From Escherichia phage EcS1, in the sequence record NC_055721.1: DNA of 64,000 bases. One strand, 5' to 3'. Positions 48,011-55,011 of this stretch are shown one piece after another; positions within the stretch are counted from its first letter, which is position 1, and every line of letters starts with the position of its first letter. The position numbers were made by a program, and so were the translations under genes. The notes beneath the pieces were generated by a model. The model ran no database searches and was not told where the DNA came from. It was given only the letters and a program-made list of their open reading frames with translations.

Positions 48011-49189
48011 TTAGAGATATTTACGGAAGTCGGTTAGAACGCTCTCGTCTACGTCGTTATCAATCTGTGCTACAAGATAAGAAGACAAATCGACTTCTTG
48101 TGGAGCAGACTGAACCATATCACTATTTAAGTATTCGCGAATCCAAGATAATGGATGACGTACAGGAGCATCCTTAATTGGACAAGGGAGTCCACAAGAA
48201 TTCATACGTGATACTGTGAGGTAGTCAATAAAGTCGCTCAGGATTTTAACGTTTAACCCAGGCATACCACCATTACGGAACAAGTGGACGGCCCACTCTT
48301 TTTCCTGGCGGTTGACTTCCATGAAAATATCTACTGCTTCTTGTTCACACTCTTTAGCAATTTCTACCCATTCATCACCGTCAGTACCCATCTGCCATTG
48401 ACGAATAATGAATTGGGTCCCTTTAAGGTGAAGCTGTTCATCACGGGCAATGAACTTCATAATCTTACTGTTGCCTTCCATGATTTCCATATTCTTATGG
48501 AAGTTGAAAGTACAAGCGAAAGATACATAAAAACGTATTGCTTCAAGGGCATTGATAACATGCATGCACAAATAGAGCGCTTTCATCAAGTTGTGTTTAG
48601 CAATTTCTTCAGATTGTTCAGCAACACAGTATGAATCATAATCGTTACCTTGGACTTTATACCACTTTGTTTCTTCTTTAGCATTTTCCCACAAGCGGGT
48701 TTTAGTCAGAACATCATCATAATAAACACCAATAGATTCTGCACGTTTCATGATGGCTTCATCAAGAACGATTTCATCAAAAATCTTAGTTGGATCATTA
48801 AACAGGTTACGCATTATGTGTGTATATGAACGAGAGTGAATTGTTTCACTGAACGTCCAGGTCTGGTTCCAAGTATCAAGACTTGGGTCAGAAATCAGAG
48901 CAGATAATACTGCTGCTGGTGCACGACCTTGGATGGTATCAAGCAATGATTGATACTTCAGGTTGTTGATGAATATTTCTTTTTGGTGTTCTGGGAGCTT
49001 TTCATATTGAGCACGGTCCATCATCAGGTTAACTTCTTCAGGCCGCCAAAAAAACGATAACTGCTTTTCAATTAGGTCTTCAAATGTTTTATGATGCTGG
49101 ATGTCATAACGGGCAATACTTAGTCCTGAACCCAAGAACATTGGTTCATTCAAGACATCTACTTGTTCTTTATTAAAAACTGTACTCAT
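48011..49189 (-). CDS. nrdB: Ribonucleotide reductase small subunit (class Ia), uninterrupted
   Basis: 392 aa continuous ORF; di-iron motif region ETIHSRSYTHI. Confidence 0.95.
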   Translation of the reverse strand: MSTVFNKEQVDVLNEPMFLGSGLSIARYDIQHHKTFEDLIEKQLSFFWRPEEVNLMMDRAQYEKLPEHQKEIFINNLKYQSLLDTIQGRAPAAVLSALISDPSLDTWNQTWTFSETIHSRSYTHIMRNLFNDPTKIFDEIVLDEAIMKRAESIGVYYDDVLTKTRLWENAKEETKWYKVQGNDYDSYCVAEQSEEIAKHNLMKALYLCMHVINALEAIRFYVSFACTFNFHKNMEIMEGNSKIMKFIARDEQLHLKGTQFIIRQWQMGTDGDEWVEIAKECEQEAVDIFMEVNRQEKEWAVHLFRNGGMPGLNVKILSDFIDYLTVSRMNSCGLPCPIKDAPVRHPLSWIREYLNSDMVQSAPQEVDLSSYLVAQIDNDVDESVLTDFRKYL

Positions 49190-49374
49190 AAGGTGTAAGT
49201 CCTGTTTAGCATTTCAGGTGTCATTATTTGGGCTTTGCGTTCTTGTTCCATCTTTTCAGACAATTTAGCAAACGAGCGTTTTAATCGTTTAGTATATTCA
49301 GCTTTAAATTCAGGGTCTTTTAAAAGAAGATGATATGCTTCAATATCATAGTCAATCATTTTTAACTTCCTCAT
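49186..49374 (-). CDS. Hypothetical small protein
   Basis: 62 aa ORF. Confidence 0.4.
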   Translation of the reverse strand: MRKLKMIDYDIEAYHLLLKDPEFKAEYTKRLKRSFAKLSEKMEQERKAQIMTPEMLNRTYTL

Positions 49375-49555
49375 ATCTGAAATCTACGCTAGTGTATTCT
49401 TTAGGTGCAAAGGCTGTACCAATCCTGATACCTTCTAGCATATTGTATAATGCAGAATGTTCGTTACGTTTGATTGGTACAGATTTTAATTTTGCTATGG
49501 TAAATAAACGCTCATTTTGTCGTGAAAATTTGATATAGATTTTGTATTCTTTCAT
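49352..49555 (-). CDS. Hypothetical small protein
   Basis: 67 aa ORF preceded by hairpin. Confidence 0.4.
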   Translation of the reverse strand: MKEYKIYIKFSRQNERLFTIAKLKSVPIKRNEHSALYNMLEGIRIGTAFAPKEYTSVDFRYEEVKND

Positions 49556-49570
49556 TTTGTTTTTCTCAGA

Positions 49571-49586
49571 AGGACATCCGTGTCCT
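49571..49586 (-). other. Hairpin AGGACA-TCCG-TGTCCT between nrdA and downstream small ORF
   Basis: Read directly. Confidence 0.5.
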
Positions 49587-49593
49587 CATTATA

Positions 49594-51855
49594 TCAAAGT
49601 TTACAAGAAGAGCAATCTTCTTCTTTTGGAACTTCGATTTCATAATCATCAGTACCAGAACCATCACGAGTATTATGATAGTAAGCTGTCTTACCACCGA
49701 AGTACCACAGATGAAGCATATCATCCATCATGACTGACATCGGAACCTTACCTTTAGGGTAGTTCTGTGGGTCATAGTACATGTTAGTAGAAATAGACTG
49801 ACATACGAATTTCTGCATAATTGCTACTTGATTCAAGTAACCTTTATTACCAGATTTCGCTAACTTCCAAGCATAATCATAAAGATCAACATTAGTATCA
49901 ACATTAGGCACAACTTGGTTAAAGGAACCTTCTTTCGATTCTTTAACACTTACAGGCCCACGTGGCGGCTCGATACCATTAGTGCTATTTGATACCTGGC
50001 TCGAAGATTCACAAGGCATGAGCGCGGATAAGGTACTGTTACGGATACCGTAACTTCTGAGGTCTTCCCGCAACTGTTCCCAGTCACAAACGTACGATGG
50101 GGCTGCGAGTTGGTCAATCTTTTTATTGTACCAGTCGATAGGTAACTCGCCTCTAGACCAACGAGTGTCTGAATAATACTCGCAATGGCCTTTTTCTTTC
50201 GCTAATTTGACTGATGCTCTGATGAGTGCATATTGAAGTCTTTCCATCATTTCGTGAGTTAAATCGTTTGCATCATTATATGATGCAAAGTTATCAGCTA
50301 ACCAAGCAGCATAGTTCGTGATACCAACACCGAGTGCACGACGTTTTTTAGCTTTCAAAGCTTCCGGGACAGGATAACCTTGATAGTCTAATAAATTATC
50401 TAAAGCACGAACTTGTACTTCGGCTAATTCGTTAATTTCGTCTTGGTTCTGCCAATCGAAGTTACCGAGTACATAAGCAGATAAAGTGCAAAGTGCGATT
50501 TCTGGGTCTTCACCACCAACGTCTTTAGTAGGAAGCGCGATTTCACAGCACAAGTTTGATTGCTTAACCGTAGCCACATCACGAATAAAAGGACCATACT
50601 CACCGACGTTATCTACAAAGTAAGGGTAAATACGAGCCGTACCTGAACGTTCAGTAAAGAACAATTCGAAGAGCTCGCGAGCTTTAATTCGTTTCTTACG
50701 AACCGTAGGATCTTTTTCTAAAGCTTCATAGAAATTACGGAACTTCAGAGGGTCAGCAAAATACGCTTCGTAAAGTTCGCCTTTCATGATGTCAGGACTG
50801 AACAACGTGATGTAATCATTTTTAACCAAACGTTCAAACATCAGGTCATTAATCTGAACACCATAGTCTAGATGACGAATACGGTTTTCATCTACACCTT
50901 TGTTGTTCTTCAGAACTAACAGGTTTTCCACTTCAAGATGCCATATCGGATAATACAACGTTGCTGCACCACCACGTACGCCACCTTGTGAACAACTCTT
51001 CACTGCGGTTTGGAAATGTTTCCAGAATGGAATCACCCCAGTATGTTTGACTTCACCATGACCAATCTTAGAACCTTCAGCACGAATCATACCACCATTA
51101 ATACCAATACCAGCACGTTTACTGATATAACGAATAATAGCTTCTGCACCTTTGTTAATTGATGTCAGTGAATCACCACTTTCAATAACAACACAAGAAC
51201 TAAACTGACGAGTTGGAGTACGAACACCTGCCATAATAGGAGTAGGCAACGAAACCTTACGAGTTGAAACAGCATCATAAAAACGAACTACGTTCTTAAT
51301 ACGATGTTCACCATCATCTTGGTGCAAACACATACCGATAAGCATGAATGCAAATTGAGGCGTTTCATAAATCTTGCCAGTTGAACGATCTTTGACTAGG
51401 TATTTTTCGATTAACTGCATCGTACCAGCATAAGTGAATTCAAAGTCACGGTCGTGTTTGATTTGAGATTCAAACAACTGGATTTCTTCTGCAGACCATT
51501 TGCTTAGGATTTCGGTGTCATAAAGACCTGCGTTAACTACTGAAGAGATGTGGTCGATAAACCGAGGTGGTTCGAATTGATTGAAAACATCTTTACGAAG
51601 ACCAAACATAGCTAGATTACTTGCTACATATTGATAATCTGGTTCGTCAACTGTAATACGGTTAGCAGCAACTTTAATAACTGCTTTATGAATTTCTTTA
51701 GTGGTCATTCCATCACGCAGATGACTTTTAACTTCTTCATAAAGGTCATAAGGGTTAACGGCTATAGATGTACTTGCGCACGACCATTCAAGGACTTGGA
51801 TGATTTTACTTGGTGTAAAATCTTGACTAACGCCTGAACTTTTTATTACTTGCAT
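49594..51855 (-). CDS. nrdA: Ribonucleotide reductase large subunit (start reassigned to MQVIKSSGVSQDF)
   Basis: 753 aa from internal ATG matching recalled T4 NrdA N-terminus; C-terminal CxxC redox tail (CSSCKL). Confidence 0.95.
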   Translation of the reverse strand: MQVIKSSGVSQDFTPSKIIQVLEWSCASTSIAVNPYDLYEEVKSHLRDGMTTKEIHKAVIKVAANRITVDEPDYQYVASNLAMFGLRKDVFNQFEPPRFIDHISSVVNAGLYDTEILSKWSAEEIQLFESQIKHDRDFEFTYAGTMQLIEKYLVKDRSTGKIYETPQFAFMLIGMCLHQDDGEHRIKNVVRFYDAVSTRKVSLPTPIMAGVRTPTRQFSSCVVIESGDSLTSINKGAEAIIRYISKRAGIGINGGMIRAEGSKIGHGEVKHTGVIPFWKHFQTAVKSCSQGGVRGGAATLYYPIWHLEVENLLVLKNNKGVDENRIRHLDYGVQINDLMFERLVKNDYITLFSPDIMKGELYEAYFADPLKFRNFYEALEKDPTVRKKRIKARELFELFFTERSGTARIYPYFVDNVGEYGPFIRDVATVKQSNLCCEIALPTKDVGGEDPEIALCTLSAYVLGNFDWQNQDEINELAEVQVRALDNLLDYQGYPVPEALKAKKRRALGVGITNYAAWLADNFASYNDANDLTHEMMERLQYALIRASVKLAKEKGHCEYYSDTRWSRGELPIDWYNKKIDQLAAPSYVCDWEQLREDLRSYGIRNSTLSALMPCESSSQVSNSTNGIEPPRGPVSVKESKEGSFNQVVPNVDTNVDLYDYAWKLAKSGNKGYLNQVAIMQKFVCQSISTNMYYDPQNYPKGKVPMSVMMDDMLHLWYFGGKTAYYHNTRDGSGTDDYEIEVPKEEDCSSCKL

Positions 51856-51874
51856 TTTTGTCCCATATTGTGAA

Positions 51875-51882
51875 TATAAATA
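51875..51882 (+). promoter_or_regulatory. Late promoter TATAAATA upstream of I-TevI-like HEG
   Basis: Perfect box 26 nt before ATG, GAGGAG RBS between. Confidence 0.55.
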
Positions 51883-51907
51883 CCAAAATATAGAGGAGTT
51901 ACCCCAC

Positions 51908-52666
51908 ATGAAATCAGGCATTTATAGAATAATTAACATTAATAATAACAAATCTTACGTTGGCAGCACTATAGACTTCCAAGCAAGATGGAAACGACAT
52001 TTTTCGGATTTGAAGAACGGGTGTCATTCTTCAATCAAACTCCAACGTTCATACGATAAACATGGTAAAGATTCATTCGTTTGTGAAATAGTTGAGCAGA
52101 CTCCATATGATGAATCTATAATTTCATTAGAAGATTATTATATCATCTATTTTGATTCAAAACAAAACGGATATAATATTGCTAACGCAGCATTTGGCGA
52201 CACTTTATCGCACCACCCTAACAAAGAAGAAATATTTAAGAAAATAAGCATTTCTCTTAGAGAAAACAATGAAAAACTTTCTGAAGAAGAAAGGAAAAAT
52301 AAATTTGGAAGTAAAAGTTGTAAGAAAGGTAAAAGCTACGAAGAATTTTACGGAGCTAAAAAGGCTCAAGAAATAGGTCTTAAACTTTCAGAAAGCAATT
52401 ATAATAGACAAATGTCTGGAACTAATAATCCATTCTTTGGTAAGACACATAGTGACGAAGTTAGAAAGAGAATTTCTGCCACACAGAAAGGACGTAAGAA
52501 ACCTCATGTTAAATTAAGTATAGAAGGAACTATTTATCAATCAGTGGCAGAAGCAATGAAAGCCACAAATCTTTCTCGTAAAGTTATAGAAAGACGTTGT
52601 GGCTCTGAATTATTCATAGATTGGTTTAGACTTCATATAGCCATTTTACCTTTAATTGGAGGGTGA
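51908..52666 (+). CDS. Free-standing GIY-YIG homing endonuclease, I-TevI-like
   Basis: 252 aa; KSGIYRI..N.KSYVGST.DF.ARWKRHFSDLKNGCHSSIKLQRS, NGYNIANAAFGDT.SHHP.KEEI and C-terminal HTH-like IEGTIYQSVAEAMKATNLSRKVIERR align with recalled I-TevI; TATAAATA and GAGGAG upstream. Confidence 0.9.
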   Translation: MKSGIYRIININNNKSYVGSTIDFQARWKRHFSDLKNGCHSSIKLQRSYDKHGKDSFVCEIVEQTPYDESIISLEDYYIIYFDSKQNGYNIANAAFGDTLSHHPNKEEIFKKISISLRENNEKLSEEERKNKFGSKSCKKGKSYEEFYGAKKAQEIGLKLSESNYNRQMSGTNNPFFGKTHSDEVRKRISATQKGRKKPHVKLSIEGTIYQSVAEAMKATNLSRKVIERRCGSELFIDWFRLHIAILPLIGG

Positions 52667-53496
52667 CTTTCATAATTTTTCAAAACAAAGTCTTCATGCA
52701 TTGTCATTTCAGTTACCCAAGTCAATTGAGCATGAGTTGTAGACACGTCAAAGTTAGAAGGTAGACCTTTGATTTCTAACTGACACAGCTCTTTAGGTTC
52801 ACGTCGTAGAATTTCTTTACACTGTTCTACATGGTTCAAATAGATGTGTGTATTGCCGCCTGAGAACACTAAGTCACCTGGAATAAGATTACACATCTTC
52901 GCTACGATATGCACAAGAGCGGCGTATGACGCAATATTAAATGGCAATCCTAAGAACACGTCAACACTTCGTTGATACCATTGCAAGTCTAGGTGGCCTT
53001 CACGCACGTTGAACTGATAGAACATATGACAAGGTGGAAGAGCCATCTTATCAATTTCAGCTGGGTTCCATGCTGAAACAATTTGACGACGATCATTAGG
53101 CATAGCCTTGATACGCTCAATTGTTTTAATTACCTGGTCGACGCCACCGAAATCTCGCCATTGCTTCCCATAAACAGGACCAAGTTCGCCACCAGAATAG
53201 CCAAGGTCTTTTGCTTGGTTTTCATAGTTATCGTCCCAAATAGTGTTACCGTCAAGATAAGAACCATGTGTACGGAATCGAAGGTCATTGACATTTGTAG
53301 AACCAGACAAGAACCACAGAAGCTCAGAGATACAGGCTTTCCATGCTAATTTCTTAGTCGTTACAGCTGGAAAACCTTTAGTCAGGTCCCAGCGTAGTTT
53401 AGTACCGAACAATGCTATCGTACCAGTTCCAGTACGATCATCAGTTTCATAACCATTAGTCAAAATGTGTTGAATCAGATGTTGATATTGCTTCAT
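52633..53496 (-). CDS. td: Thymidylate synthase, intronless
   Basis: 287 aa continuous ORF, ThyA-like throughout. Confidence 0.95.
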   Translation of the reverse strand: MKQYQHLIQHILTNGYETDDRTGTGTIALFGTKLRWDLTKGFPAVTTKKLAWKACISELLWFLSGSTNVNDLRFRTHGSYLDGNTIWDDNYENQAKDLGYSGGELGPVYGKQWRDFGGVDQVIKTIERIKAMPNDRRQIVSAWNPAEIDKMALPPCHMFYQFNVREGHLDLQWYQRSVDVFLGLPFNIASYAALVHIVAKMCNLIPGDLVFSGGNTHIYLNHVEQCKEILRREPKELCQLEIKGLPSNFDVSTTHAQLTWVTEMTMHEDFVLKNYESHPPIKGKMAI

Positions 53497-53906
53497 TAAT
53501 AATTCTCTTGTAAAGGATAAAAGAGGATTTCACGTCCATTCTTTTCGAATCGACCAATCATGATAACAGAATCAGAAGTATACTCTATATTTCCTAAAGC
53601 AGAGGCCTTTACAAGTTGTCCGTAATGAGGACAAACTTTCATACGTCCTTGGTCGAATACACCTGGACCACCTGCATAACAATAGAAATAGTCAGAACCA
53701 CCACGAATAGCTTCTACGGCTACTTCTATTTTGTAGATTCCATGTTCAAAAATATCAGCGGCATATCGTTGTGGGTCTTTTTTATATTCAGCAATTGTTG
53801 GTGCTGAAATCAAAGGACATAATGGCCAGTTCTTTTGTTCTTCACGTTTAAGTAATGTTAGGAGCATAATGTTCTTCCAGTGGATTGATATAAACTTCTG
53901 AGCCAA
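53496..53906 (-). CDS. Hypothetical protein, paralog A of tandem pair (probable start at 53867, MLLTLL)
   Basis: Shares LTLL..K.W...HGIY.(V/I)E and GN(V/I).Y...GRF.K.G.E...PL(E/Q)E(N/H)Y with 53848..54195; stop overlaps td start. Confidence 0.5.
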   Translation of the reverse strand: MAQKFISIHWKNIMLLTLLKREEQKNWPLCPLISAPTIAEYKKDPQRYAADIFEHGIYKIEVAVEAIRGGSDYFYCYAGGPGVFDQGRMKVCPHYGQLVKASALGNIEYTSDSVIMIGRFEKNGREILFYPLQENY

Positions 53907-54195
53907 TTTTGTAGAATCGACCAGTGATAACCATCACAGGACCATTCTCTGAATCATTATAAGTCACATTACCTGCAGCATGACCTAAGAACCATGTTTT
54001 AGTAGAAGTGCCGATATAAACAGGCTCATTGCCTTTATTGTTATACATGCAGCAGTCTTTAGACCATTGGTACAATTCATTGACTGGAATTTCTACACGA
54101 TAGATTCCATGCTCGTGACGCCAATTCTTCCAGACTTTTTGTTTCTTGTCTGCTTCAAGAAGAGTTAAGTTATACCCCAGTTTTGACATATACAT
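53848..54195 (-). CDS. Hypothetical protein, paralog B of tandem pair
   Basis: Paralogous to 53496..53906 (see above). Confidence 0.5.
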   Translation of the reverse strand: MYMSKLGYNLTLLEADKKQKVWKNWRHEHGIYRVEIPVNELYQWSKDCCMYNNKGNEPVYIGTSTKTWFLGHAAGNVTYNDSENGPVMVITGRFYKIGSEVYINPLEEHYAPNIT

Positions 54196-54793
54196 CCTCG
54201 CTGATATTTGTTACTGCATCAATATGATAATAGTGAGATTCTTTAAACAAGAAACCAGAGTCTTCGCGCGCTGGAGCAACAATAAAGCTCATTGGCAATT
54301 GAGTGTCAGAGTTCACCCTGTGACGTTTACGGATAGAGGTTTGTATTACCTTATCTGAGAATGGATAAGCTTGCTGAAGTAGTCCTGCACCACCTATCAC
54401 TGAATATACACCTTCTTCACGACTAAAGATAGCATTGAAATCAGCATTAGGGCTAGAAACTTGAAGTTCATGACCGTTCAGGAATTTATCGAATTGATAG
54501 TCACTTATATAAAAGTGAGCCAATGAGCCATCTTGAGTTGTAGGATAGTCACGAGACAAATCGCAAACAACTACATGAGGGCGTCCTACTAGTGGCTTAG
54601 GGAAACTAGAAAACGTCTTAGCTCCCATAATTAAAGTAGTGCCTTCAGTACGAGCTTTAAAGTTTTTAAGGTCTTGAGGAATATGGCCCCATGGTAACCC
54701 ACCATTTATTCCAAATGCAAATTCATTTTCGCCTGAAACAGTTTTAGTCCCAGCATAAGCATAAATTAATTGAATCATTGATTTTCCCACCAT
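54170..54793 (-). CDS. frd: Dihydrofolate reductase
   Basis: ELAFG...GLPWG, DL.NFKARTEGT.MIMGAKTF, HIVVCDL.RDYP.T.DG.LAHFYI, QVSSPNA, VIGG match recalled T4 Frd. Confidence 0.92.
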   Translation of the reverse strand: MVGKSMIQLIYAYAGTKTVSGENEFAFGINGGLPWGHIPQDLKNFKARTEGTTLIMGAKTFSSFPKPLVGRPHVVVCDLSRDYPTTQDGSLAHFYISDYQFDKFLNGHELQVSSPNADFNAIFSREEGVYSVIGGAGLLQQAYPFSDKVIQTSIRKRHRVNSDTQLPMSFIVAPAREDSGFLFKESHYYHIDAVTNISEDVYVKTGV

Positions 54794-55011
54794 TCAATAG
54801 CTTTTTTAACATCACAAAAATAATCAGAATTAATGCAACCACCGAATTCATCGTATAGGCACACTTCAATGAAACTAAGGCGTAAATGACAATCTGATTC
54901 ATGCATAGCTTGTTCTGCATGCATCTCAAAAATAGATAAATCTGATGATGTGAATGCACAATGGAGAAGATAATTATGGTCTTCGCCTTTGTATGAAATT
55001 GTTGTAATCAT
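54775..55011 (-). CDS. Hypothetical small protein (frd.x-like)
   Basis: 78 aa ORF. Confidence 0.4.
   Translation of the reverse strand: MITTISYKGEDHNYLLHCAFTSSDLSIFEMHAEQAMHESDCHLRLSFIEVCLYDEFGGCINSDYFCDVKKAIEWWENQ

What the first reader, a model, noticed from the sequence alone, without database searches (positions are those of the whole stretch)
51856..52666. Free-standing I-TevI-like GIY-YIG homing endonuclease inserted antisense between nrdA and an intronless td
In T4 (from memory) I-TevI sits inside the td group I intron. Here td is one uninterrupted 287-aa ORF, and a 252-aa protein with I-TevI-like catalytic and C-terminal HTH regions is encoded on the opposite strand, between td and nrdA, with its 3-prime end overlapping the td 3-prime end by 34 nt. 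It has a TATAAATA late promoter and lies antisense within the td-nrdA early transcription unit. This looks like an intron-independent homing arrangement.
Basis: partly seen in the sequence, partly recalled or inferred. Interest (0 to 1): 0.6.

Follow-up and report, generated by a model that had tools for sequence, protein, structure and literature searches.

The report
Free-standing I-TevI-like homing endonuclease gene
This is a selfish "homing endonuclease" gene, related to the classic T4 enzyme I-TevI but lying between two phage genes instead of inside an intron; it is real and looks mobile, but it is an ordinary, already annotated kind of element.

Summary
The window is Escherichia phage EcS1. 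ORF 51908-52666 (+) encodes a 252-aa GIY-YIG protein between intronless td (52633-53496, -) and nrdA (49594-51855, -). It is antisense to both and has its own TATAAATA late promoter.

The N-terminal nuclease domain matches I-TevI (E 5e-32) and keeps all catalytic residues. The DNA-binding half is only about 27% identical to I-TevI and lacks the zinc finger.

The same gene sits in the same slot and orientation in about 32 public T4-type genomes from at least six genera. Most relatives lack it. HEG-less relatives carry nrdA.1 (DUF4326) there instead, and no locus examined has both. Homology to HEG-less relatives breaks at the td stop and the nrdA start.

The EcS1 and Erwinia phage Gravdalen copies have synonymous divergence 0.11, against 0.40-0.58 for flanking genes. 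This indicates recent lateral transfer. pN/pS is 0.06. Gravdalen's copy is frameshifted.

The 34-nt overlap with td is EcS1-specific: td ends in TGA, not TAA. The normal protein is 242 aa with a 4-nt overlap.

Verdict: a free-standing homing endonuclease, I-TevI-related but not I-TevI. Its cleavage site is unknown, and the td I-TevI site is disfavoured. New member of a known kind; modest interest.

The parts
51875..51882 (+). T4-type late promoter TATAAATA of the endonuclease gene
   Evidence: Exact match. A TATAAATA, or the T4 variant TAATAAATA, lies about 18-32 nt (mostly 25-29) upstream of the ATG in all nine family copies examined. Function is inferred from T4 knowledge.
51893..51898 (+). 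Shine-Dalgarno GAGGAG, 9 nt before the ATG
   Evidence: Read directly from the sequence. AGGAG-type sites occupy the same place in relatives.
51908..52666 (+). Homing endonuclease gene (252 aa plus stop); EcS1 BBC78300.1
51908..52198 (+). GIY-YIG catalytic domain (aa 1-97)
   Evidence: phmmer to I-TevI 1mk0/1ln0 gives E 5e-32. Y6, Y17, R27, H31, H40, E75 and N90 are invariant. AlphaFold pLDDT is 81-91 over aa 1-80, falling from about aa 85.
52199..52414 (+). Linker (aa 98-169) without the I-TevI zinc finger
   Evidence: The I-TevI CKC...CSKC cysteines are present only in the intron-encoded clade.
52415..52477 (+). NUMOD3 motif (aa 170-190)
   Evidence: Pfam NUMOD3 scores 31.6 bits, above its cut-off of 20.4. 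It aligns to the I-TevI DNA-binding chain 1i3j. A helix is predicted at 183-193.
52505..52633 (+). C-terminal helix-turn-helix DNA-binding subdomain (aa 200-242)
   Evidence: It aligns to 1i3j. Pfam I-TevI_DNA-bd scores 23.8 bits, below its cut-off of 27. pLDDT is 80-88, with helices at 213-220 and 224-232.
52634..52663 (+). EcS1-specific 10-aa read-through tail (HIAILPLIGG), antisense to the last td codons
   Evidence: td's stop is TGA here. In Gravdalen, phiR1-RT, KP179 and L091 the HEG stops at a TAA overlapping the td stop. The tail has pLDDT below 50.
52633..53496 (-). td (thymidylate synthase), uninterrupted, 287 aa
52925..52975 (-). Equivalent of the I-TevI homing site in td; the CAACG motif is at 52970-52974 on the minus strand
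   Evidence: Alignment with the T4 exon junction. This is a candidate target that the evidence disfavours.
49594..51855 (-). nrdA (ribonucleotide reductase large subunit)
51856..52632 (.). The cassette: DNA with no counterpart in HEG-less relatives
   Evidence: Homology to Kc304 and Vettismorki stops at 51855 and resumes at 52631-52633. About 10 nt of nrdA-proximal similarity remains.

Best explanation
A free-standing GIY-YIG homing endonuclease gene. It belongs to a clade that shares the nuclease domain and proximal linker with I-TevI but has its own zinc-finger-less NUMOD3 + helix-turn-helix DNA-binding half.

Inferred mechanism, by analogy with T4 Seg endonucleases:
1. The gene is transcribed late from its own TATAAATA promoter, on the strand opposite the early td-nrdA unit.
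2. In a mixed infection the enzyme cuts the td-nrdA.1-nrdA region of a phage that lacks the gene.
3. The break is repaired by recombination within the conserved td and nrdA flanks, using the HEG-carrying genome as template.
4. The cassette thereby replaces the resident nrdA.1 (DUF4326) gene.

Shown here: the gene's identity, its intact catalytic core, the slot it occupies, its sporadic distribution, the allelic replacement of nrdA.1, recent lateral transfer, purifying selection, and decayed copies in some lineages.

Inferred, not shown: enzymatic activity, late expression, and the cleavage site. My best guess is that the target lies in or next to the replaced segment (the last ~170 nt of td, nrdA.1, or the nrdA start). 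That would make carriers immune simply because they lack the site. The I-TevI site in td is not my favoured target.
For: - Domains and catalytic residues.
- Source genome and public annotation.
- Same slot, same antisense orientation and a late promoter in Gravdalen, phiR1-RT, Jiaodavirus Klebsiella phages, Tequatrovirus Ozark/RPN226, and Acinetobacter AbTZA1/Porter.
- Frequency: about 32 of roughly 995 T4-type records with this region carry it.
- Four HEG+/HEG- pairs have 96-98% identical backbones. Their breakpoints fall at the td stop and the nrdA start.
- nrdA.1 is present in 31 HEG-less loci and in none of the 8 free-standing HEG+ loci.
- EcS1 against Gravdalen: the HEG is about 97% identical and the flanks 64-98% in 100-nt bins. 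pS is 0.11 for the HEG, against 0.58 for td, 0.40 for nrdA and 0.46 for nrdB. HEG pN/pS is 0.06.
- Decayed copies exist in Gravdalen and Porter, while intact 242-aa copies exist in Gravdalen-like contigs.
- Foreign-looking tracts of about 144-172 nt in the td 3' end, and about 90 nt in nrdA, flank the HEG in phiR1-RT and L091.
- The G+C content dips over the gene.
Against: - No cleavage or inheritance data exist for any member of this clade.
- In three of the four pairs the flanks are identical right up to the cassette. Co-conversion is therefore not visible there, and ordinary recombination in td and nrdA could move the cassette without a nuclease.
- The 10-aa C-terminal extension in EcS1 could impair the protein.
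- The late promoter and its timing are inferred from consensus only.
- The search for an operator-like copy of a target sequence near the promoter found nothing above chance.
Confidence: 0.8

Rival explanations
1. The enzyme is a functional twin of I-TevI. It cuts td at the intron-insertion site about 315 nt from its own gene, either as a free-standing progenitor of I-TevI or as a helper in 'collaborative' or trans homing.
For: The nuclease domain is 55-61% identical to I-TevI, and the NUMOD3 and HTH elements are homologous. The gene lies next to td. The CAACG and TTTAATATTGCGTCATA elements of the T4 site are conserved in EcS1 td. A distance of 0.3-0.6 kb is typical for free-standing endonucleases (PMC2988022).
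Against: - The DNA-binding half is only 20-34% identical to the I-TevI clade. The zinc-finger distance ruler is absent.
- The last 510 nt of td are identical in Ozark (HEG+) and L043 (HEG-). The site is also identical in Gravdalen and Kc304. Carriers would therefore not be immune.
- Codon differences at the site are not linked to HEG presence.
- RPN226 carries both the td intron with I-TevI and this gene.
- The foreign tracts in phiR1-RT and L091 stop 144-172 nt into td, short of the site.
Confidence: 0.12
2. The gene is no longer a mobile element. It has either been domesticated (for example as a DNA-binding regulator, or as a nuclease used against competing phages) or is an inactive relic.
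For: Strong purifying selection, pN/pS 0.06, shows the protein matters. I-TevI itself moonlights as a repressor (PMC2988022). The flanks are identical in three HEG+/HEG- pairs. EcS1 carries a read-through tail.
Against: The distribution is sporadic, about 3% of T4-type genomes, and spans at least six genera. The gene transferred recently between genera, and some copies are frameshifted. This is the pattern of a selfish gene, not a fixed host function. All catalytic residues are kept.
Confidence: 0.08

Closest known systems
I-TevI (phage T4 td-intron endonuclease; PDB 1MK0, 1LN0, 1I3J)
   Same: The GIY-YIG nuclease and proximal linker are 61% identical over aa 1-120. All catalytic residues are shared. 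Both have the NUMOD3 helix, a C-terminal HTH, a late promoter just upstream, and a td neighbourhood.
   Different: This gene is not in an intron. It has no zinc finger, and its DNA-binding half is only 27% identical. It lies on the opposite strand to td. It coexists with genuine I-TevI in RPN226. Its target is probably different.
T4 Seg endonucleases and 'intronless homing' (SegF, SegG and others; Belle 2002 and Liu 2003, as cited in PMC2790892 and PMC2988022)
   Same: Both are free-standing GIY-YIG genes between conserved genes, sporadically distributed. The expected mechanism is also shared: a break in the HEG-less genome repaired from the carrier, with flanking markers co-converted.
   Different: Sequence similarity to Seg proteins is weak (Pfam SegE_GIY-YIG E 0.002). 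This clade carries its own late promoter and is antisense, whereas seven T4 free-standing HEGs are promoter-less cassettes in sense orientation.
SegH and Hef (Sandegren et al. 2005; title cited in PMC2790892; paper not held)
   Same: These are homing endonuclease genes that replace other genes at one slot in related T4-type phages. Here the HEG replaces nrdA.1.
   Different: There one HEG replaces another HEG (mobC, mobE). Here the displaced gene is a DUF4326 accessory gene. Details of SegH and Hef rest on my memory and the title only.
T4 segD
   Same: A free-standing GIY-YIG gene oriented opposite to its neighbours (PMC2988022).
   Different: segD has no recognisable promoter of its own. This gene has a conserved TATAAATA.
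I-BmoI (Bacillus thyA intron; from PMC12774661 and memory)
   Same: A GIY-YIG enzyme related to I-TevI that acts on thymidylate synthase genes. From memory, it lacks the zinc finger and uses NUMOD3-type repeats.
   Different: It is intron-encoded. It was not compared directly here.

Membership tests
GIY-YIG nuclease superfamily (PF01541) | GIY and YIG motifs with catalytic Arg, Glu and Asn | tested here: met
   Pfam 57.2 bits against a cut-off of 22.6. Y6, Y17, R27, E75 and N90 align to I-TevI structures and are invariant in 11 sequences.
I-TevI (intron-encoded endonuclease 1) | Encoded inside the td group I intron | tested here: not met
   td is one 287-aa ORF. There is no Intron_gpI hit, and the positive control works. 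No T4 intron sequence is found in the window.
I-TevI (intron-encoded endonuclease 1) | Four-cysteine zinc finger in the linker (the distance determinant) | tested here: not met
   The cysteines are present only in the intron-encoded sequences of the alignment.
I-TevI (intron-encoded endonuclease 1) | NUMOD3 helix plus C-terminal helix-turn-helix | tested here: met
   NUMOD3 scores above its cut-off. phmmer to 1i3j gives E 6e-8. The subdomain is modelled confidently.
I-TevI (intron-encoded endonuclease 1) | Recognises the td homing site and cuts at CNNNG 23/25 nt upstream of the intron-insertion site | not testable with these tools
   Indirect evidence is against it: a divergent DNA-binding half, identical td sites in HEG+ and HEG- pairs, and coexistence with I-TevI.
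Free-standing phage homing endonuclease genes (intronless homing) | Lies between genes, not in an intron or intein | tested here: met
Free-standing phage homing endonuclease genes (intronless homing) | Present or absent among close relatives, with sharp boundaries in conserved flanks | tested here: met
Free-standing phage homing endonuclease genes (intronless homing) | Gene history differs from that of its flanks (lateral transfer) | tested here: met
   pS is 0.11 for the HEG against 0.40-0.58 for td, nrdA and nrdB in the same genome pair.
Free-standing phage homing endonuclease genes (intronless homing) | Site-specific cleavage of the HEG-less allele and preferential inheritance | not testable with these tools
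   Needs enzyme assays and phage crosses.

The most novel reading that the evidence does not exclude
This td/nrdA clade may be the free-standing sister, or possibly the progenitor, of I-TevI. It has the same nuclease-plus-linker module joined to a different DNA-binding module without the zinc-finger ruler. It sits 0.3-0.6 kb from the I-TevI homing site and is sometimes co-resident with I-TevI. If so, I-TevI arose (or escaped) by a swap of the DNA-binding domain next to td. The two elements would also drag each other along during homing, because each lies within the other's co-conversion range. A linked possibility is that the clade's target is the accessory gene nrdA.1 (DUF4326), which it deletes as it spreads.
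Probability: 0.25. Interest if true: 0.55.

Novelty: new member of a known kind. Interest (0 to 1): 0.3.

Why it matters
Free-standing homing endonucleases drive local gene exchange and marker exclusion between T4-type phages. This clade matters in three modest ways.

- It gives a natural comparison for I-TevI, which is also used as a genome-editing nuclease module. The nuclease and linker are the same, but the DNA-binding half differs and there is no zinc-finger ruler.
- It may help test how endonuclease genes come to live in introns.
- It shows an accessory gene, nrdA.1 (DUF4326), being displaced by a selfish gene.

None of this is surprising to specialists. The gene is already annotated in public records.

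Tried and rejected
1. Intron remnants. Rfam found nothing in the window. At the gathering threshold it also missed the T4 intron, so I reran a positive control at the E-value threshold, which worked, and added BLAST with the T4 intron halves.

2. Immunity changes at the td I-TevI site. The AGT serine codon after CAACG looked enriched in carriers. However, it also occurs in HEG-less loci L026, L028, L042 and L043, and L043 is identical to Ozark there. Rejected.

3. A shared nrdA difference at nt 126 in three pairs. It is a freely varying synonymous site with no consistent direction. Rejected.

4. The motif GTTACCCCA(C/T)AT near the HEG start resembles the antisense of the nrdA.1 MWGN codons. 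The match is not above shuffles (14 of 300 shuffles score at least as high) and is not reproduced in other pairs.

5. A search for an operator-like copy of a target overlapping the late promoter, by the I-TevI logic. Only the trivial shared nrdA 5' end matched. Everything else was within the shuffle range.

6. The highly conserved nrdA.1 stretch TGYCATGGTGATATAATAGCT as an nrdA promoter. The consensus scan did not report a two-hexamer sigma-70 match using TATAAT as the -10, in either L043 or L024. Left unexplained.

7. Literature searches for a description of this clade found none. The SegH/Hef paper is not held.

Full report
**What is there.** The ORF at 51908-52666 (+) encodes 252 aa.
- It lies between nrdA and td, both on the minus strand.
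- nrdA runs from 49594 to a true start at 51855. The longer ORF that reaches 51921 is an artefact of ORF listing.
- td, 52633-53496, is one uninterrupted 287-aa ORF.
- The two 3' ends overlap by 34 nt.
- A TATAAATA sits at 51875-51882 and a GAGGAG Shine-Dalgarno sequence at 51893-51898.
- The ORF is 31-33% G+C against 40-44% for its neighbours.
- An exact protein look-up shows the window is Escherichia phage EcS1 (175,437 bp; genus Kagamiyamavirus). The protein is BBC78300.1, already named 'homing endonuclease'; UniRef calls it 'I-TevI homing endonuclease'.

**What the protein is.**
- Pfam finds GIY-YIG (2e-15) and NUMOD3 (1.6e-7). I-TevI_DNA-bd scores just under its cut-off. PHROGs agrees at 9e-43.
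- Against solved structures, residues 1-97 match the I-TevI catalytic domain at E 5e-32. Residues 157-242 match its DNA-binding domain at E 6e-8.
- Y6, Y17, R27, H31, H40, E75 and N90 are invariant in an 11-sequence family alignment.
- The four cysteines of the I-TevI zinc finger occur only in the intron-encoded sequences. Free-standing relatives have a different, NUMOD3-like stretch there.
- Split at residue 120, the N-terminal part is 55-61% identical to intron-encoded I-TevI proteins. That overlaps the 58-72% range seen within the free-standing group.
- The C-terminal part is only 24-31% identical to I-TevI proteins, against 42-59% to the other free-standing proteins.
- An AlphaFold model is confident for the nuclease domain and for the C-terminal helix-turn-helix. 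The linker and the last nine residues score low.
- So this is a sister clade of I-TevI with its own DNA-binding half, not I-TevI itself.

**No intron.** An Rfam scan found nothing in 49000-55000. The same setting detects the T4 td intron at 40 bits. The T4 ribozyme halves match RPN226 at 94-95% but match nothing in the window.

**Distribution.**
- The td-nrdA region has relatives in 995 phage records. The closest are about 86-88% identical Winklervirus phages.
- The HEG is at the same place, antisense, in the following phages:
  - Erwinia phage Gravdalen: 97% nt identity, split by a 1-nt deletion.
  - Yersinia phage phiR1-RT: 65% aa; annotated 'I-TevI homing endonuclease'.
  - Jiaodavirus Klebsiella phages: about 56% aa.
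  - Tequatrovirus Ozark and RPN226: 57% aa.
  - Acinetobacter phages AbTZA1 and Porter: about 50% aa.
- The clade-specific C-terminal half is found at full length in 32 records.
- Every copy has a T4-type late promoter upstream.
- Two run assemblies carry Gravdalen-like phages with an intact 242-aa copy. Gravdalen's frameshift is therefore recent decay. Porter has one decayed and one intact HEG in tandem.

**Boundaries and what was displaced.**
- Homology to HEG-less Kc304 and Vettismorki ends exactly at the nrdA start (51855) and resumes at the td stop (52631-52633).
- Four HEG+/HEG- pairs in four genera have 96-98% identical backbones: Gravdalen/Kc304, Ozark/L043, KP179/L024 and phiR1-RT/L029. 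Their breakpoints show the same pattern.
- In HEG-less phages the slot next to nrdA holds a roughly 98-aa gene, nrdA.1, which is a DUF4326 protein.
- Among the loci examined, 31 have nrdA.1 and no HEG. All 8 free-standing HEG+ loci lack nrdA.1. None has both.
- The spacer is a generally variable slot that can hold several other contents.

**The overlap with td.** In Gravdalen, phiR1-RT, KP179 and L091 the HEG ends at a TAA that overlaps the td stop codon by 4 nt. In EcS1, td ends in TGA. This destroys that TAA, so the HEG reads on for 10 codons. The 90%-identity cluster representative is 242 aa.

**Evidence for mobility.**
- Between EcS1 and Gravdalen the HEG is about 97% identical, while flanking 100-nt bins are 64-98% identical.
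- Gravdalen's own flanks are 93-100% identical to the HEG-less Kc304.
- Synonymous divergence is 0.11 for the HEG. It is 0.58 for td, 0.40 for nrdA and 0.46 for nrdB. The HEG therefore moved between the two genera long after their backbones split.
- HEG pN/pS is 0.06, so the protein has been under selection.
- phiR1-RT carries dense substitutions in the last ~144 nt of td and the first ~90 nt of nrdA relative to its HEG-less relative. L091 has a similar patch in the last ~172 nt of td. Both look like co-converted donor DNA.

**Where it cuts is unresolved.** The td I-TevI site is conserved in EcS1 but is a poor candidate, for four reasons:
- The DNA-binding half is divergent and lacks the zinc-finger ruler.
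- The last 510 nt of td are identical in Ozark and the HEG-less L043, and the site is identical in Gravdalen and Kc304. Carriers would not be protected.
- RPN226 has both the td intron with I-TevI and this HEG.
- The foreign tracts stop short of the site.

The first 80-125 nt of nrdA are likewise identical within three of the pairs. A target that differs between carriers and non-carriers is therefore most simply placed in or at the edge of the replaced segment: nrdA.1, or the td 3' end. This is inference. Attempts to find an operator-like copy of a target near the promoter gave nothing above chance.

**Comparison with what is known.**
- Free-standing GIY-YIG endonucleases, intronless homing, marker exclusion and cleavage at a distance are well established in T4 (PMC2988022, PMC2790892).
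- An antisense HEG has a precedent in segD.
- I found no paper that describes this td/nrdA clade. Public annotations already call it a homing endonuclease.

**Verdict.** The finding is real and correctly interpreted, with the corrections above. It is a new, uncharacterised member of a known kind. It has some value for understanding I-TevI modularity and origins.

Noticed in passing
L090 (Escherichia phage RPN226) 756-5866: One genome carries three mobile elements within 5 kb: the td group I intron with I-TevI, the free-standing I-TevI-like HEG, and an HNH endonuclease ORF that splits nrdA into two CDSs.
   Followed up: partly
L009 (Acinetobacter phage Porter) 2501-4315: Two I-TevI-like HEGs lie in tandem between nrdA and td. 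The nrdA-proximal copy is frameshifted. The td-proximal copy is intact and has extra NUMOD3 repeats.
   Followed up: partly
HEG-less loci, e.g. L043 4596-4889, L024 4576-4869, L004 3778-4071: nrdA.1 (DUF4326, ~98 aa) contains a stretch, TGYCATGGTGATATAATAGCTCATATAGTTAA, lying 40-90 nt before nrdA. It is nearly invariant even at synonymous positions across genera. It resembles an extended -10 element, but no full promoter was found.
   Followed up: partly
L033 4361-5035: A different GIY-YIG HEG, 24% identical, occupies the same td-nrdA spacer in the sense orientation. Other phages (L018, L037, L045) have a tiny hydrophobic ORF plus a hairpin there. The spacer is a hypervariable slot.
   Followed up: partly
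L041 2352-3166 (metagenome contig): td exon 1 is followed by 131 nt that are 100% identical to the 5' part of the T4 td intron. The 3' part of the intron and td residues 184-253 are missing. This looks like a deleted intron or a td pseudogene.
   Followed up: no
L029 4655-7855: nrdA of a phiR1-RT-like phage is interrupted by about 1.3 kb between residues ~460 and ~436-605. This is probably another endonuclease insertion.
   Followed up: no
window 53496-54195 (-): Two tandem paralogous ORFs (136 and 115 aa; both phrog_1928; 27% identical) lie between td and frd and overlap by 59 nt.
   Followed up: partly
window 49352-49555 (-): A 67-aa ORF (phrog_20564, function unknown) between nrdB and nrdA has no counterpart in Gravdalen. 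The T4 mobE slot is occupied differently here.
   Followed up: no
window 51856-51870 (-): The nrdA ribosome-binding site is GGGAC in EcS1 and AGGAC in Gravdalen. HEG-less relatives, and also phiR1-RT, Ozark and KP179, have AGAGGAC. In this sub-lineage the cassette has altered nrdA's translation signal.
   Followed up: no
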